This document shows, one piece after another, positions 4,553-35,660 of a stretch of DNA of 64,000 nucleotides. The notes beneath the pieces were generated by a model, which did not search any database, was not told the DNA's origin, and saw only the letters and a list, made by a program, of their open reading frames with translations. This DNA is from the human T2T-CHM13v2.0 reference genome, Homo sapiens. The stretch lies in NCBI RefSeq assembly GCF_009914755.1, contig NC_060926.1; one strand, written 5' to 3'. A program made the position numbers and the translations under genes. Position 1 is the stretch's first letter. Each line of letters opens with the position of its first letter.

Positions 4553-4681
4553 CGTTCCGGAGGCTAGGAAGATCATGATCAAGGTGCGGGCTTGTTTGAT
4601 TGTCTTGTGAGAGCTGCAGCACTTGGAAGGAAGGAATGCTGTGTCCTCACACAGTGGAAGGCTAAGGGGCAGGCTGAACAT
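4553..4681 (-). CDS. PID1: PID1 alternative N-terminal coding segment (MFSLPLSLPLCEDTAFLPSKCCSSHKTIKQARTLIMIFLASGT, 43 aa) within an MST/MLT1A-like LTR
   Basis: ATG at 4681, open frame to ACG|GTGAGA donor (GT at 4552-4551), phase 0. Matches the recalled N-terminus of the long PID1/NYGGF4 isoform. The 5' boundary is not determined. Confidence 0.78.
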
Positions 4682-4768
4682 GGCACGAAGCCTCTTGTAC
4701 AAGGCTTTTCATTCCATTCAAGAGGGGAGGAGCCCTGATGACTTAACCACCTCTTAAAGGTCCCTCTT

Positions 4769-5085
4769 GGCCGGGTGCAGTGGCTCACGCCTGTAATCCC
4801 AGCACTCTGGGAGGCCGAGACAGTCAGATCATGAAGTCAGGAGATCAAGACCATCCTGGCTAACACAGTGAAACCCCATCTCTACTAAAAACACACAAAA
4901 AAATAAAAATTAGCTGGGTGTGGTGACGGGCACCTGTAGTCCCAGCTACTCGGGAGGTTGAGGCAGGAGAATGGCCTGAACCTGTGAGGCAGAGCCTGCA
5001 GTGAGCCGAGATCGTGCCACTGTACTCTAGCCTGGGTGACAAAGCAAGACTCCATCTCAAAAAAAAAAAAAAAAAAAAAAAAAAA
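4769..5085 (+). mobile_element. AluY, full length
   Basis: Y-type segments (accatcctggctaacac, ggagaatggc), long poly(A), imperfect TSD aaaggtccctctt / aaaagtctctctt. Confidence 0.92.
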
Positions 5086-5275
5086 GTCTCTCTTAAGGTC
5101 ATCACTTTGGCCATTAAGTTTCAACATCTGAATTTTGGAGGGGACACATTTAAACTATAGCACTCCTCAACCACGTATGCAGAGAAGGAAATCAGAGATA
5201 GGAAGATAATGTCACCTAACGTTCCTCTCCCTTTTCCAACCTCACCCATCTCCACTCAACAAAATCACATCAATT

Positions 5276-5465
5276 TGTGTGTGTGTGTATGCATGTGTGT
5301 GCTATGTATGTATACATACATATATATATATACACACATTCCAATATGATGCATTGTTGTTAATAATGTTTGTTGACTGACCAAAAATGGATATATATAC
5401 ACACACACACATAAATATATATATATATATATATATATTTACATGCATGTGTATGTGTGTGTGTA
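5276..5465. repeat. Compound (TG)n/(TA)n/(CA)n microsatellite with a unique 50-bp core
   Basis: Directly visible dinucleotide runs flanking 5340-5390. Confidence 0.85.
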
Positions 5466-6104
5466 TTCACACTTATAGGAAAGAAACTGCCGAAGAAAGT
5501 ATATGAGATATGAAATGCAAACTAAAGCAACAGAAAGTCACTCCGAGTTGAGACTGGAGGATGTGTTTCTCAAGTCTGCTTTTCCATATCATAGTATGGC
5601 CACTAAAACAAGTGAACAAGTGTGTGTTCCATTTCTCAATAAAGCAGAGCTGTAAACTGTTCAATGGGAAGTGCCAAGAGACTCTTATTAGCAGAAAGCG
5701 CAAGAGGAGAAGGCAGCGGATGTTTTCATAAATCACATAAATTCCTTAGTTTAATTTTTTTAAATAAGATCTTTGTTAGAAAATAAAAAATCAGAATGGT
5801 TAAAATTGCCTTACGTCTTTCATAATATAATATGAATTATTCAAATTGGATTACTTGTTCAAAGCTGGAGAGGTTTTAGATGTGCAAAGAGAACAACAGG
5901 ATAGGAATAATATATTTTGTAATATGAGAACATTTAGAAGCTAAAGGCCAGCTGGCATGTCATCATAAGGTCTTTTGAACTACTTAATAGTTCTAGATGT
6001 ACATGGGCAGGGTGGGGATGGGGCTGGGAGACCAAGATGAAAAAAGAGGTATAGAAATGAAGGGTCTTGAAATCCAGGTAACTGAAAGTAGTCAGTGTGC
6101 TAGA

Positions 6105-6401
6105 TTTTTTTTTTTTTTTGAAATGGAGTCTCACTCTATCACCCAGGCTGGAGTGCAGTGGAGCGATCTTGGCTCACTGCAACCTCCACCTCCCGGGTTC
6201 AAGCGATTCTCTTGCCTCAGTCTCCCAGGTAGCTGGGATTACAGGCACCCACCACCACGCCTGACTAATTTTTGTATTTTTAGTAGAGATTGGGCTTCAC
6301 CATGTTGGCCAGGTTGGTCTGGAACTCCTGACCTCAGGTGATCCACTCACCTCAGCCTCCCAAAGTTCTGGGATTACAGGTGTGAGCCACCACACCCAGC
6401 C
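6105..6401 (-). mobile_element. AluS (Sx/Sz-like)
   Basis: Full antisense dimer with poly(T). TSD tgtgctagatttt at 6096-6108 and 6403-6415. Confidence 0.93.
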
Positions 6402-32318: not shown

Positions 32319-32659
32319 CGCTATGGTCTAGACTCATATGTTAGAATCCTAATGCCCAAGGTAATGGTATGAGGAGATGAAACCTTTGGGGAGGTCATAG
32401 GAGTGTAGCCTTCATGAATGGGATTAGTGCCCTTACAAAATAGGCCTAAGAGAGCTCATCCAGCCCTTACCTTATGTGAGGACACAGCGTGAAGGCACCA
32501 TTTCTATGAATCAGAAACAGGCCTTCCCCAGACACTGAATCTGCTGGCATCTTTATCTTGGACTTACAGCTTTAAGAACCATGAGAAACTAATGTCTGTA
32601 GTTTCTAAGCTACTCAGTCTAAGGAATTTGTTACAGCAGCCCCCAAGCAGACTAAGACA
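32319..32659 (+). mobile_element. MLT1A/A0 solo LTR
   Basis: gctatggtct start, catgaatgggattagtgccctta, gtgaggacacag, gactaagaca end. Confidence 0.85.
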
Positions 32660-32699
32660 CTAGTGAACTATCTTCTCTGCACCTTTGTCAAAATAATAT

Positions 32700-33380
32700 A
32701 TATTTCTGATCAAAAAGCATAACTCTCAATAAAAGCCCTCATTGACAGCTGCTGAAATTTAAAACATGTATACTCTGACTCAGCCATATCAATTTTGGCA
32801 GTTCAGCCTAAAGAAATACAGGCACCAGTAGGTCAGGATATACACAAAAATTTATAGCAGTATTATTTATAGGGAAAAAAAACAGAACATGAACACAACC
32901 TAAATACTCCCTCAAGAGGGAATGGGGGAATGAGTAAATAAATTATAGTCCAGCTTCACCACAAAATTCTACACAGGTGCTAAAAGGAATGAGTTGGGTC
33001 TACATATATTGACCAGAAAAGATACCCACAAAACACAGTAAAGTAGAATTTTTTAAAAAGTTGCATATATATATATATGTATATATGTATATATATGTGC
33101 ATGTGTGTGTGTGTATATATATACATATATATAATTGAAATTCATGAGAAAAATTAAACATGTGTTTACACATATGTATACACTTGCAAAAGCCTGGGGA
33201 AAGTATGTGGAAAAATAACCACTAGATAGAAGGAAACCATGGGTTTCCTTCATGGGTAGAATTGGGAATTGGAAAAGGCACAAAATTACTAACTTCTTTA
33301 CATACTTCTAAACTGACTGATTTGCTACCCTAAGCAGACATTATTTTGTAATTTTTTACAATCAAGAAAGTAGTAGACAT
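32700..33380 (+). mobile_element. L1ME-like 3' fragment with TA/TG repeat
   Basis: ctctgactcagccat...aacaacctaaatactcc-type motifs. Confidence 0.6.
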
Positions 33381-33502
33381 GACATGGAGCAGATGTAGAG
33401 AAAATTCTGATTGCCATTTTTTTTTTTTTTTTTTTTTGGTGGCTGGTCAAGTAGGGATAAATATCTTGGTGACTGGTAGATACCCAAAAGAAAATTCCAC
33501 AC

Positions 33503-33912
33503 TATTATAGATTAAATTGTGTCCCTCTAAAATGTACATGTTGAAATCCTAACCCGTAGTACCTCGACATGTGACTTTATTTGGTCAGTAAGGTGGGCTC
33601 AACCACTAACCCAATATGACTGGTTTTCTTATAAACAGGGGAAATCTTGACATAGAGACACACACACAGGAAGAATATCACATGAATACTGGAGTGATGA
33701 TGCCACAAGCTAAGGAATGCCAAAGGTTGCCAGTAAACTACCAGCAGCTAGGAGAAAGCCAGGAGCTGTGTCTCCCTCACAGCCCTCAGGACAAATTAAC
33801 CCTGCCAGCATCTGATTTCAGACTTCCAGTCTCCAGAACTGCAGGACAACCCACAGTACCAGTACCACCCGGTTTGTGGTACTTTGCTATTGCAGCCCTA
33901 GGAACAAATACA
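33503..33912 (+). mobile_element. MLT1B/C solo LTR
   Basis: aattgtgtccc...gccacaagctaaggaatgcc...ttgcagccctaggaacaaataca. Confidence 0.8.
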
Positions 33913-35201
33913 TTAAGCTACCAAGATTTTATGTCCAAAAGCAAAATAGCTACCACCAGGACCAGGCCCCATAGCCTCCAGCTCACTTACTAGGAAACAA
34001 CCTCAGAAGACTTGGAAAGGAAACAGCAGTTGCCACTGCCCACATTACAGGTGGCTTGTACAGCAGGATTCCGCTCTCACCTGAGGAAAAGTAGGCCCAT
34101 TCCTGACGTGAAACCATCAAAGCATGCAGTGGGTGAATCTGTGAATTTATTCTCAGACCCACAACTATAAAGCAACTCTGAGGAAAGGTTTGTCATGAAA
34201 GGATTAGGATGGATCTAACAATTATGCAGCTCCTTTCCCCTGGTAACTGTCCATTCCCCTCCTGCTCCCATGGACACAGGGGATATTCCTTCTAGAGAAG
34301 AGAATGAAAAGCAAAACAGCATTTTAAGACCAGAATGACTCTTCACTCTCAGAAAGAGACACTGACAGAGCAGTTCTGCAGTTGGACAGGCTCCCTGCCT
34401 TCGTCTCAGAGGGACTGGAAACATTTGTGCCTTCCTGGCTGTATCAAAAAAAGACAAGCTTGCCCAAGAAAATAAGTATTATGACATGGCTGACTTTTTT
34501 TTTTTTGTCTTCAAAGTGAGTTCCAGAATAAGAACAGGCTCTTCACTAAAATAATTTATACAGTTATCAAGTAAAAAACAAAACAAAACACCAAACCAGG
34601 TACAAATAATCAACCTGACATACCATGAGGCTCACCTGGAGGTCAATTTAAATATACTTCTTTGTCAGCTTACAGGTTTTCCTAGTCAGGAAGAGGCAAA
34701 TCACAGAGGCTGCTACCCAGAGAGCCTACAGGGACTCTGACAACCTAGTTTGTTTTGAGGATAAAATCCTTAATACTAGTCTTCCCTTGGTCTCAGCCTG
34801 TCTGGAAAAGTTTCACTGAGGTCCACCTCAAAGTAACTGTGTTTCACATTCCAGCCCATAAGTTTCATCTCCAAAGCGAACCATCTTCAGGCCTGAAGCT
34901 CATGTACCATATTTTCCAGAGGACCTTCCCTGAGCAACACAGCACATGTTACACTCAAGGTTTGCTGCCTTTTCCTAGGATGTTGTCCACCAGAAGGAAA
35001 TAAAGGAGAAAGAAGCAATAGCTTAGTTGTTTGCTGTTTTCATTTTTTTTTTAATCCACAGTAGATAAACTCACACTCGGTATTAAAAAAAGGATTCCTT
35101 ATAGACACATGCATTGTGTCGCAGTATGTGAAAGTTGGGGATACCTACATCACAGAAGTAGAGTGACCAAACATAGTCAAGAGGCTATATGGTTTCACTG
35201 G

Positions 35202-35660
35202 TGTAGTAGCTACCTAGGGCTGTTGTAACAAATAACCATAAACTGGGTAGCTTAAAACAACAGAAATTTAATCTCTCACCATTTCGGAGGCTGGAAGTCC
35301 AAAATGTAAAGGTTGGCAGGGCCACACACCATCCAAAAGCTCTGGAGAAGAACATGTCCTCGACTCTTCTAACATCAGGTGGTTGCCAGCAATCCTTGGC
35401 ATTCCTTGGCTTATGATGCCATAACTCCGGTTTCTGCCTTGATCTTCACAATGGCCTTCTCTGTGCCGCTTCTGTGTCTGCAAATCTCTCCTTATAAGGA
35501 CATTAGTCATTGGCTCTAGGGTTCACCCTAATTCAATATGACCTCATCTTAACTTGCTTACATCTGCACAAACCTTATTTCCAAATAAAGCTACATTCAC
35601 AGGTACCAGGGGTTAAGACTTCAACACATCTTTTAGGGGAACACAATTCAACCTTCAACA
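35202..35660 (-). mobile_element. MLT1C-like solo LTR, exonised
   Basis: gggctgttgtaacaaataaccataaactgggtagcttaaaacaacagaaattta...ggggaacacaattcaaccttcaaca. Sense to PID1. Confidence 0.88.
35280..35402 (-). CDS. PID1: PID1 alternative N-terminal coding segment (MPRIAGNHLMLEESRTCSSPELLDGVWPCQPLHFGLPASEM, 41 aa) within an MLT1 LTR
   Basis: ATG at 35402, open frame to ATG|GTGAGA donor (GT at 35279-35278), phase 0 like exon 1. Matches a recalled alternative PID1 isoform N-terminus. The 5' boundary of the exon is not determined. Confidence 0.75.

What the first reader, a model, noticed from the sequence alone, without database searches (positions are those of the whole stretch)
4553..35402. Two independent MaLR LTRs supply swappable PID1 N-termini through the same LTR splice donor, each with G at -1
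Seen: two sense-oriented LTRs of different MaLR subfamilies, 31 kb apart, each carry an ATG-initiated open frame (41 aa at 35402-35280, 43 aa at 4681-4553). Both end in phase 0 at the homologous donor: CCTCCGAAATG|GTGAGAGATTAAATTTC and CCTCCGGAACG|GTGAGAAAATCAATTTC. Exon 1 also ends in phase 0 (CAG|GTAAGG), so all three could join the same downstream exon. Known: MaLR LTRs carry a conserved internal donor (recalled consensus CCAGAACY|GTGAG) and act as alternative promoters or first exons, notably in oocytes. I recall PID1 isoforms of 217, 248 and 250 aa, which equal a common 207 aa plus 10, 41 and 43. Inference: both copies independently acquired G at -1, which improves U1 pairing, giving convergent LTR exonisation and lineage-specific N-termini on a PTB-domain protein.
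Basis: partly seen in the sequence, partly recalled or inferred. Interest (0 to 1): 0.8.

Follow-up and report, generated by a model that had tools for sequence, protein, structure and literature searches.

The report
Two old LTRs give PID1 N-termini
Two ancient retrotransposon LTRs inside the first intron of human PID1 each supply an already annotated alternative coding first exon through the same LTR splice donor, and both copies carry a derived G just before that donor; it is a tidy example of a known process.

Summary
On the minus strand, 4681-4553 codes 43 aa and 35402-35280 codes 41 aa. Both end in phase 0 at GT donors, as does exon 1 (10 aa). I located PID1 exons 2 and 3 in the same genome. 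They code 49 + 158 = 207 aa, so the isoforms are 217, 248 and 250 aa. A paper describes the first-cloned NYGGF4 cDNA as coding 250 aa.

Both exons lie in sense-oriented members of a dispersed LTR family. One has TG..CA ends and a 5-bp target duplication. The names MaLR and MLT1 are recalled, because no Dfam library was on hand. The two LTRs align to each other over only 45 bp around the donor, so they are separate insertions of different subfamilies.

The family base at -1 is T: 3418 of 3747 exact-motif copies genome-wide, and 49 of 58 nearest relatives. G at -1 is therefore derived in both copies. A simple U1-duplex estimate improves by about 3.8 kcal/mol with G.

Not shown: selection (as opposed to ascertainment of strong donors), lineage specificity, LTR promoter use, or translation. 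The 35490 exon starts right after an AG in the LTR's TATAAG-like motif, so it is probably an internal exon. The 4719 exon has two upstream AUGs.

Verdict: a new member of a known kind, of modest interest.

The parts
4471..5162 (-). LTR copy 1. It is about 375 bp without the inserted Alu, has TG..CA ends, and is in sense orientation to PID1.
   Evidence: One search gave 1346 first-look candidates in the genome, with relatives at 69-83% identity. In one search, 20 of 29 relatives match the piece upstream of the Alu, most of them directly adjoining the downstream piece. The ends were read.
5163..5167 (-). 5-bp target-site duplication AGGAG, upstream copy. The downstream copy is at 4466-4470.
   Evidence: Read directly.
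4769..5085 (+). Alu inserted inside LTR copy 1, antisense to PID1. It has 9-bp flanking repeats AAGAGRGAC and ends 50 bp upstream of the annotated exon start.
   Evidence: poly-T first on the minus strand, flanking repeats. In one search the relatives lack the insert. 'Alu' is named by recall.
4553..4719 (-). Annotated alternative PID1 exon inside LTR copy 1. The coding part 4681-4553 gives 43 aa. The exon start is not preceded by AG.
   Evidence: Hub gene table; (250-aa product).
4662..4717 (-). Two upstream AUG frames in that exon. ATG 4717 gives 2 codons. ATG 4712 gives 16 codons, ends at 4662 and overlaps the main ATG at 4681.
4540..4555 (-). Donor ACG|GTGAGA (GT at 4552-4551) with derived G at 4553. 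The family poly(A) hexamer position +8..+13 reads AATCAA here, so the hexamer is lost.
35193..35670 (-). LTR copy 2, about 478 bp, in sense orientation to PID1. Candidate 5-bp duplication CCATA at 35675-35671 and 35192-35188.
   Evidence: One search gave 5909 first-look candidates, with relatives at 70-76% identity over nearly the full length. One search gave the extent 35196-35674. The ends were read.
35280..35490 (-). Annotated alternative PID1 exon inside LTR copy 2. The coding part 35402-35280 gives 41 aa. Phase 0 is open through the whole exon. There is a 3-codon upstream frame at 35422-35411.
   Evidence: Hub gene table; (248-aa product).
35491..35496 (-). TATAAG, the family's TATA-like motif. 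Its AG (35492-35491) directly precedes the exon and is the likely 3' splice site.
   Evidence: In one search, AG is present at this column in 24 of 29 relatives and TATAAG in 9 of 29.
35267..35282 (-). Donor ATG|GTGAGA (GT at 35279-35278) with derived G at 35280. A poly(A)-type hexamer ATTAAA lies at +8..+13 (35272-35267).
43609..43882 (-). Conventional PID1 exon 1. The coding part 43638-43609 gives 10 aa. Donor CAG|GTAAGG.
   Evidence: Hub gene table.
38323..38342 (-). Annotated 20-nt exon, preceded by AG, with donor AAG|GTATTT. It would link exon 1 in frame to the 35490 exon.
   Evidence: Hub gene table; (294-aa frame, hypothetical join).
584..690 (-). Annotated 107-nt cassette exon (cag|G ... 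GTG|gtatga). If included after the 4719 exon it breaks the frame.
   Evidence: Hub gene table.

Best explanation
Two separately inserted, ancient solo LTRs of one large LTR family lie in sense orientation in PID1 intron 1. The family is MaLR/MLT1 by recall. Each LTR has become an alternative 5' coding exon. Both use the donor that the family carries near its 3' end, 7-8 nt upstream of the LTR poly(A) hexamer.

In the family this donor reads ACT|GTGAGA, with no exon-side pairing to U1. In both PID1 copies the -1 base is G, which adds a G:C pair to U1. I infer that this lets splicing to PID1 exon 2 win over skipping or LTR polyadenylation. In copy 1 the poly(A) hexamer is also lost.

Because both donors, like exon 1, end in phase 0, and each exon holds an in-frame AUG, the annotated products are 250 aa, 248 aa and 217 aa with one common 207-aa body that holds the PTB domain.

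The shared G most likely reflects which copies the spliceosome can use (ascertainment of strong donors), not selection for new protein ends.

Shown here: frames, phases, homology of the donors, the derived state of G, and isoform lengths. Inferred: the effect of G on splicing, the acceptor use at 35490, and which AUG is translated.
For: Frames, donors and phases.

Repeat family membership: searches gave 5909 and 1346 first-look candidates and 29 relatives each at about 70-83% identity. Copy 1 has TG..CA ends and a 5-bp duplication AGGAG. The Alu is an insert within copy 1 (20 of 29 relatives match the piece upstream of the Alu, most directly adjoining the downstream piece).

Separate subfamilies: the two LTRs align to each other over 45 bp only.

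Family base at -1: with the exact 18-mer context the counts are T 3418, A 159, C 109, G 61. In the nearest relatives the counts are T 24, G 3, C 1, gap 1 of 29, and T 25, A 2, G 2 of 29.

U1 duplex estimate: -8.1 and -8.3 kcal/mol with G against -4.4 with T; exon 1 is -11.5.

Donor-poly(A) arrangement: AATAAA or ATTAAA at +7/+8 in 15 of 28 and 19 of 29 relatives. Copy 1 has AATCAA and copy 2 has ATTAAA.

Common 207 aa and products of 217, 248 and 250 aa. The hub gene table lists 4553-4719 and 35280-35490 as PID1 exons.

Papers, passages read:
- PMC6467375 states that the NYGGF4/PID1 cDNA predicts 250 aa.
- PMC5538554 states that MaLR LTRs carry similar donors at about the same position near the 3' end and may carry an AUG.
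- PMC12999487 describes closely embedded donor-poly(A) motifs in many LTRs.
Against: No RNA data were available, so use of either junction rests on the hub's RefSeq table alone.

The splicing effect of G is inferred from a nearest-neighbour duplex estimate, not from MaxEntScan or an assay.

No in-gene control exists: the window holds no sense-oriented copy with T at -1, and the rest of the intron could not be fetched.

The nearest relatives were picked by similarity to queries that contain the G, which slightly inflates G among them.

For copy 2 the ungapped alignment needs four changes in eight exon-side bases, so an indel route to the G cannot be excluded.

The names MaLR, MLT1 and Alu come from recall, not from a repeat library.

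Translation from the LTR AUGs is doubtful for copy 1, where two upstream AUGs precede the main start and one frame overlaps it.
Confidence: 0.75

Rival explanations
1. The shared G at -1 is coincidence. Exon use is decided by other features, such as local promoter activity, the Alu insertion next to the copy-1 start, the TATAAG-derived acceptor in copy 2, or loss of the poly(A) hexamer. On this reading the T form of the donor would work as well.
For: G at -1 is not very rare once its CpG-decay product is counted. 28 of the first 100 listed hits in the AAT context have G (554 hits in all), and 5 of 58 nearest relatives have G. GTGAG on the intron side is intact in most relatives: 22 of 28 and 23 of 29 keep GT. 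There were only two cases, and they were examined after the fact.
Against: At a background of roughly 2-9% per copy, two of two is expected in under 1% of pairs. The estimated U1 duplex nearly doubles in stability with G. The strong preference for G at -1 in human donors is established knowledge (recalled, not from a call).
Confidence: 0.15
2. The two G changes and the two open frames were fixed by selection, giving PID1 functional, lineage-specific, swappable N-termini.
For: All three 5' exons are phase 0 and join one exon. The 250-aa form was the cDNA first cloned, according to PMC6467375 (passages). Both LTR exons are kept in the RefSeq table given by the hub.
Against: Phase-0 ATG frames of 30 or more codons ending at a GT donor occur in 7 of 57 relatives by chance. 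The copy-2 start codon sits at a column where 12 of 29 relatives also have ATG and 9 have ACA or ACG, which is a routine CpG-decay product. Upstream AUGs precede both starts. The hub names the 217-aa transcript as the selected one. No cross-species or protein data were available.
Confidence: 0.1
3. The LTR exons are real but act as 5' untranslated exons. Ribosomes start elsewhere, for example at in-frame Met codons further down (239, 215, 208, 203 or 168 aa products). The 41-aa and 43-aa N-termini are then annotation conventions. This rival concerns translation only and can hold together with the best explanation.
For: In the copy-1 exon the main ATG is the third ATG, and it lies inside a 16-codon upstream frame. 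The copy-2 exon has a 3-codon upstream frame. Several in-frame downstream Met codons exist.
Against: Both main ATGs have a purine at -3 (read). The upstream frames are short, so reinitiation or leaky scanning is possible. The literature treats the 250-aa open frame as the protein (PMC6467375 passages), though that is a prediction from cDNA.
Confidence: 0.3

Closest known systems
MaLR/ERVL LTR first exons with an LTR splice donor and AUG (Peaston 2004 as cited in Franke et al. 2017, PMC5538554; passages read)
   Same: The donor lies near the 3' end of the LTR at a position shared across MaLR groups. The LTR can supply an AUG. The LTR exon splices to a host exon and changes the N-terminus.
   Different: Those cases are LTR-promoted transcripts of rodent oocytes and zygotes. 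Here promoter use is not shown, one exon probably uses an LTR-internal AG as acceptor (that paper says these LTRs carry no acceptor), the elements are much older, and a paper describes the first cDNA as isolated from obese subjects (PMC6467375).
ERBB4 transcripts started in two intronic MLT1 LTRs (MLT1C in intron 12, MLT1H in intron 20) in anaplastic large-cell lymphoma (Babaian and Mager 2016, PMC5134097; passages read)
   Same: Two separate LTRs of the same broad group inside one gene each give an alternative 5' end. The authors discuss de-repression against convergent selection.
   Different: The ERBB4 forms are cancer-specific truncations with undefined start codons. The PID1 forms are reference-annotated, keep the whole common body, and add LTR-coded residues through one homologous donor.
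IL22RA2 exon from an MSTB2 MaLR LTR, and the survey of LTR-derived coding exons (Piriyapongsa et al. 2007, PMC2008291; passages read)
   Same: A MaLR LTR contributes in-frame coding sequence, and a single base change at the donor is thought to have made the exon usable. 24 of 36 coding exons derived wholly from LTRs were MaLR.
   Different: In IL22RA2 the change created the GT itself (AT to GT) within the poly(A) hexamer of an internal cassette exon. In PID1 the GT is ancestral and the change is at -1. PID1 is not named in that paper's main text, and its supplements could not be opened.
Closely embedded splice donor and poly(A) motifs of LTRs (PMC12999487; section 9 read)
   Same: The donor is followed within 10 nt by a poly(A) hexamer. 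Here it is at +7/+8 in 34 of 57 relatives.
   Different: That work is on mouse LTRs such as MT2_Mm and argues that genomic position, not sequence alone, decides chimera formation. A role for the -1 base is my inference.

Membership tests
MaLR (ERVL-MaLR) LTR, MLT1 group | Dispersed, high-copy LTR-sized repeat | tested here: met
   Searches gave 5909 and 1346 first-look candidates in the genome and relatives on many chromosomes at about 70-83% identity. The 18-mer around the donor occurs 3418 times with T at -1.
MaLR (ERVL-MaLR) LTR, MLT1 group | TG..CA termini and a 5-bp target-site duplication (feature list recalled) | tested here: met
   Copy 1 has TG at 5162-5161, CA at 4472-4471, and AGGAG on both sides. 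Copy 2 starts with TG and has a candidate duplication CCATA, but the terminal CA is not kept, so it is met for one copy and inconclusive for the other.
MaLR (ERVL-MaLR) LTR, MLT1 group | LTR signal order: TATA-like motif, then a donor near the 3' end, then a poly(A) hexamer | tested here: met
   TATAAG-like motif. Donor followed by AATAAA or ATTAAA at +7/+8 in 34 of 57 relatives. The donor position agrees with PMC5538554.
MaLR (ERVL-MaLR) LTR, MLT1 group | Match to the curated Dfam/Repbase MLT1 models, with a subfamily name | not testable with these tools
   No repeat library was available. The names MaLR and MLT1 are recalled. A literature search for the 13-mer found only primer lists.
LTR-promoted chimeric transcript (LTR as alternative promoter) | The transcription start lies inside the LTR, downstream of its TATA-like motif | tested here: inconclusive
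   The 4719 start is inside the LTR and not preceded by AG, but it lies upstream of the decayed TATA-like motif (CCTTGTAC against CCTTATAA in relatives) and 50 bp from an Alu. The 35490 start follows AG directly, which points to an acceptor. No CAGE data were available.
LTR-promoted chimeric transcript (LTR as alternative promoter) | The LTR donor is spliced to a host exon | not testable with these tools
   The only evidence is the hub's RefSeq exon list plus frame compatibility. No junction reads were available.
PID1 (PTB-domain protein, Pfam PID_2) | The common body holds the PID_2 domain | tested here: met
   PF14719 matches C2:229508288-229508719(-) at 65.6 bits, over the curated cut-off. 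This stretch is exon 3 of the gene in which the window lies.

The most novel reading that the evidence does not exclude
The -1 base may be a general switch for this very large LTR family. About 146,550 solitary MLT1 LTRs are tabulated in PMC5134097. The ancestral ACT|GTGAGA donor sits 7-8 nt before the LTR poly(A) hexamer and is too weak to define an exon. A single T-to-G change, later often blurred to ATG|GT by CpG decay, would tip the donor-poly(A) contest towards splicing. If so, sequence alone would predict which sense intronic copies can become exons. PID1 would show this twice in one intron, with the resulting N-termini available for tissue-specific tuning of a PTB adaptor.
Probability: 0.25. 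Interest if true: 0.5.

Novelty: new member of a known kind. Interest (0 to 1): 0.3.

Why it matters
PID1 (NYGGF4) is studied in obesity and insulin signalling, and the cDNA first cloned and cited in that work codes 250 aa (PMC6467375). That length matches the form whose first 43 residues come from an LTR, while the reference-selected human form is 217 aa. Experiments with 'PID1' may therefore use different N-termini without saying so.

For transposon biology the locus is a compact natural pair. The same LTR donor is recruited twice in one intron, each time with the same derived base. That makes the contribution of the -1 base to LTR exonisation directly testable. The general process (LTR donors, LTR AUGs, LTR-derived coding exons) is well described, so this refines it and does not change it.

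Tried and rejected
- **Rest of intron 1 for in-gene controls.** I asked for the other ~200 kb of PID1 intron 1 to look for sense copies with T at -1 as controls. I then fetched only the two short exon stretches and dropped the control.
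- **Supplements of PMC2008291.** These could list PID1 among LTR-derived coding exons. Supplements of the other surveys were not seen either.
- **Paper searches for PID1 with LTR terms.** PID1 + MLT1 gave 1 paper, with both terms in unrelated places. PID1 + MaLR gave 2 papers; the one I opened, PMC11887679, matched only 'Malric' and a citation in its reference list, and PMC11048218 was seen in the listing only. PID1 / 'alternative first exon' / LTR gave nothing on this locus among the 15 listed. PID1 + NYGGF4 + isoform gave 6 papers; of these I opened only PMC3546650, and the word 'isoform' there is unrelated to PID1. NM017933 gave 4 papers, judged from titles and abstracts to be expression studies and not opened.
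- **Literature search for the 13-mer donor motif.** It found primer lists only, so it could not confirm the family name.
- **Motif scan of the window.** The donor motif with 2 mismatches gave 5 hits against 4.2 expected by chance, which is uninformative.
- **Gene conversion between the two LTRs as the source of the shared G.** Rejected, because they share only 45 alignable bases.
- **A G-bearing subfamily as the source.** Rejected, because the closest relatives of each copy carry T. Of the top 11 relatives of copy 2, ten have T and one has C. The top four of copy 1 have T, A, T, T.
- **C (a CpG) as the ancestral base at -1.** Judged unlikely, with T at 3418 against C at 109.
- **Not done.** I did not compute MaxEntScan scores or RepeatMasker/Dfam names, and I had no RNA-seq, CAGE, Ribo-seq or cross-species alignments; none of these was available. 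No family consensus was built; only column counts were made.

Full report
**What is in the sequence**

On the minus strand, 4681-4553 reads as a 43-aa frame (MFSL...ASGT) ending ACG|GTGAGA. 35402-35280 reads as a 41-aa frame (MPRI...ASEM) ending ATG|GTGAGA. PID1 exon 1 codes MWQPATERLQ and ends CAG|GTAAGG. All three end in phase 0. The hub's RefSeq table lists 4553-4719 and 35280-35490 as exons of other PID1 transcripts, so both are already annotated.

**The common body of the protein**

- A search of the window's own genome with Pfam PID_2 found PID1 exon 3 at C2:229508288-229508719(-), at 65.6 bits.
- Reading the two stretches gave exon 2 as 147 nt (49 aa; cag|CAC...AAG|gtatgg) and the coding part of exon 3 as 158 aa. 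The common part is therefore 207 aa.
- PMC6467375 (passages) states that the NYGGF4/PID1 cDNA, citing Wang 2006, predicts 250 aa. That length equals the product that starts in the 4719 exon.

**What the two elements are**

Each is a member of a dispersed repeat family.

| | Copy 2 (35190-35680) | Copy 1, 3' part (4440-4744) |
|---|---|---|
| First-look candidates in the genome | 5909 | 1346 |
| Identity of the 29 fetched relatives | 70-76% over nearly the full length | 69-83% |

Copy 1 runs from TG at 5162 to CA at 4471. It is flanked by AGGAG on both sides. It is split by an antisense Alu at 4769-5085 with its own 9-bp flanking repeats. In 20 of 29 relatives the piece upstream of the Alu also matches, in most of them directly next to the downstream piece.

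Copy 2 spans about 35670-35193, with a candidate duplication CCATA.

The two LTRs align to each other over only 45 bp around the donor, at 84% identity. They are therefore separate insertions of different subfamilies that share a conserved 3' end.

The names MaLR, MLT1 and Alu are from recall, because no repeat library was available.

In the window the family has five copies. Three are antisense (7094-7265, 32409-32659, 33505-33912). The only two sense copies are the two exons.

**The donor and its -1 base**

In pairwise alignments to the relatives, both PID1 donors fall on the same GT of ..CCAGAACT|GTGAGA...

| Data set | T | A | C | G | Other |
|---|---|---|---|---|---|
| Copy 2's 29 nearest relatives | 24 | 0 | 1 | 3 (two are duplicates of each other) | 1 gap |
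| Copy 1's 29 nearest relatives | 25 | 2 | 0 | 2 | none |
| Genome-wide, otherwise exact 18-mer | 3418 | 159 | 109 | 61 | none |

Genome-wide, G is 61 of 3747 (1.6%). In a longer 24-mer context, 98 of the first 100 listed hits have T (549 hits).

G at -1 makes a CpG with the C at -2. In the AAT context, 28 of the first 100 listed hits have G (554 hits in all). ACG|GT therefore decays often to ATG|GT, which is the state of copy 2. The true share of G at -1 is nearer 5%, by extrapolation from those 100 rows.

The closest relatives of each copy carry T, so there is no sign of a G-bearing source subfamily. G is derived in both copies.

For copy 2 the ungapped alignment needs four changes in the eight exon-side bases, so an indel route to the G cannot be excluded.

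**Likely effect of the G**

A nearest-neighbour duplex estimate against the U1 5' end gives these values:

| Donor | Estimate with G at -1 (kcal/mol) | Estimate with T at -1 (kcal/mol) |
|---|---|---|
| Copy 2 | -8.1 | -4.4 |
| Copy 1 | -8.3 | -4.4 |
| Exon 1 (as is) | -11.5 | not computed |

In the family the donor is followed at +7/+8 by AATAAA or ATTAAA in 15 of 28 and 19 of 29 relatives. This is the donor-poly(A) arrangement described for LTRs in PMC12999487 (section 9). Copy 1 has lost the hexamer (AATCAA). Copy 2 keeps ATTAAA.

I infer that the stronger U1 site helps splicing win over skipping or LTR polyadenylation. This is not shown.

**Other anatomy**

- The 35490 exon begins directly after the AG of TATAAG, the family's TATA-like motif. 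AG is present at that column in 24 of 29 relatives. With annotated upstream exons that end in a donor at 38323 (hub), this exon is more likely internal than a first exon.
- Phase 0 is open through the whole 35490 exon. Exon 1 plus the 20-nt exon plus this exon would read through in frame to a 294-aa product. Whether that join exists is unknown.
- The 4719 start is not preceded by AG. It lies upstream of the decayed TATA-like motif and 50 bp from the Alu, so the LTR's own promoter is not clearly the one used.
- Start codons: at the copy-2 ATG column, 12 of 29 relatives have ATG, 6 have ACA and 3 have ACG, a CpG-decay pattern. At the copy-1 ATG column, none of the 8 relatives that cover it has ATG.
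- Upstream AUGs: the copy-1 exon has two before the main start (2 and 16 codons, the second overlapping the main ATG). The copy-2 exon has one (3 codons).

**Is it more than chance?**

A phase-0, ATG-started frame of 30 or more codons ending at a GT donor occurs in 3 of 28 and 4 of 29 relatives. That is about one copy in eight, so the open frames are not remarkable.

Two of two exonised copies with G at -1, against a background of about 2-9%, is unlikely by chance (under 1%). But it was noticed after the fact, and only exonised copies were inspected. The simplest reading is that the spliceosome uses the copies with the stronger donor.

Selection on the protein ends is neither needed nor shown.

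**Comparison with what is known**

- Franke et al. 2017 (PMC5538554, passages) describe similar donors at about the same 3' position in MaLR LTRs, and LTR AUGs.
- Piriyapongsa et al. 2007 (PMC2008291, passages) found that most coding exons made wholly of LTR sequence are MaLR. They traced one (IL22RA2) to a single donor mutation.
- Babaian and Mager 2016 (PMC5134097, passages) describe two MLT1 LTRs starting ERBB4 transcripts in one gene.
- My searches found no paper linking PID1 to these LTRs (passages checked; PMC11048218 and five of the six papers were seen in the listings only).

**Verdict**

The locus is a new, neat member of a known kind: LTR donor exonisation that gives alternative N-termini. 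Its one testable refinement is the role of the -1 base.

Limits: no RNA, CAGE, Ribo-seq, cross-species or repeat-library data were available, and the in-gene control could not be fetched.

Noticed in passing
window 38323-38342 with 43609-43882 and 35280-35490: If the annotated 20-nt exon is spliced between exon 1 and the copy-2 LTR exon, the frame runs unbroken from the exon-1 ATG through the whole LTR exon into exon 2. That would give a 294-aa product. The hub lists the exons but not how they are joined.
   Followed up: partly
window 584-690: This is an annotated 107-nt cassette exon (cag|G ... GTG|gtatga). If included after the copy-1 exon it shifts the frame and ends the ORF at 74 aa. It looks repeat-derived by eye, but this was not tested.
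   Followed up: partly
window 4769-5085: An Alu (named by recall), antisense to PID1, is inserted inside LTR copy 1 with 9-bp flanking repeats. It ends 50 bp upstream of the annotated exon start at 4719. It could bear on where transcription starts and on how old that start is.
   Followed up: partly
genome-wide copies of the donor motif: G at -1 creates a CpG with the C at -2. With the exact AAC context, G is the rarest base (61) and A is 159. In the AAT context 28 of the first 100 listed hits have G. This fits fast decay of ACG|GT to ATG|GT and ACA|GT, so exact-motif counts understate how often G arose.
   Followed up: partly
window 35400-35402 and the same column in L002-L030: The start codon of the 41-aa frame sits at a family column that reads ATG in 12 relatives, ACA in 6 and ACG in 3, out of 29. 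This suggests an ancestral ACG whose CpG decay repeatedly creates an AUG in this LTR family.
   Followed up: yes
window 7094-7265, 32409-32659, 33505-33912: Three further copies of the same LTR family lie in the intron, all antisense to PID1. This agrees with the known antisense bias of intronic LTRs (PMC1794541, passages).
   Followed up: partly
window 8948-9217: The hub table lists the RN7SK pseudogene RN7SKP283 here. I did not examine it.
   Followed up: no
L013 and L014 (chr17), L026 and L027 (chr16): Two pairs of relatives have the same donor-region string and the same identity to the query. They differ at one base further downstream in the second pair. They are probably segmental duplicates, so the relative counts hold slightly fewer independent copies than 58.
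   Followed up: no
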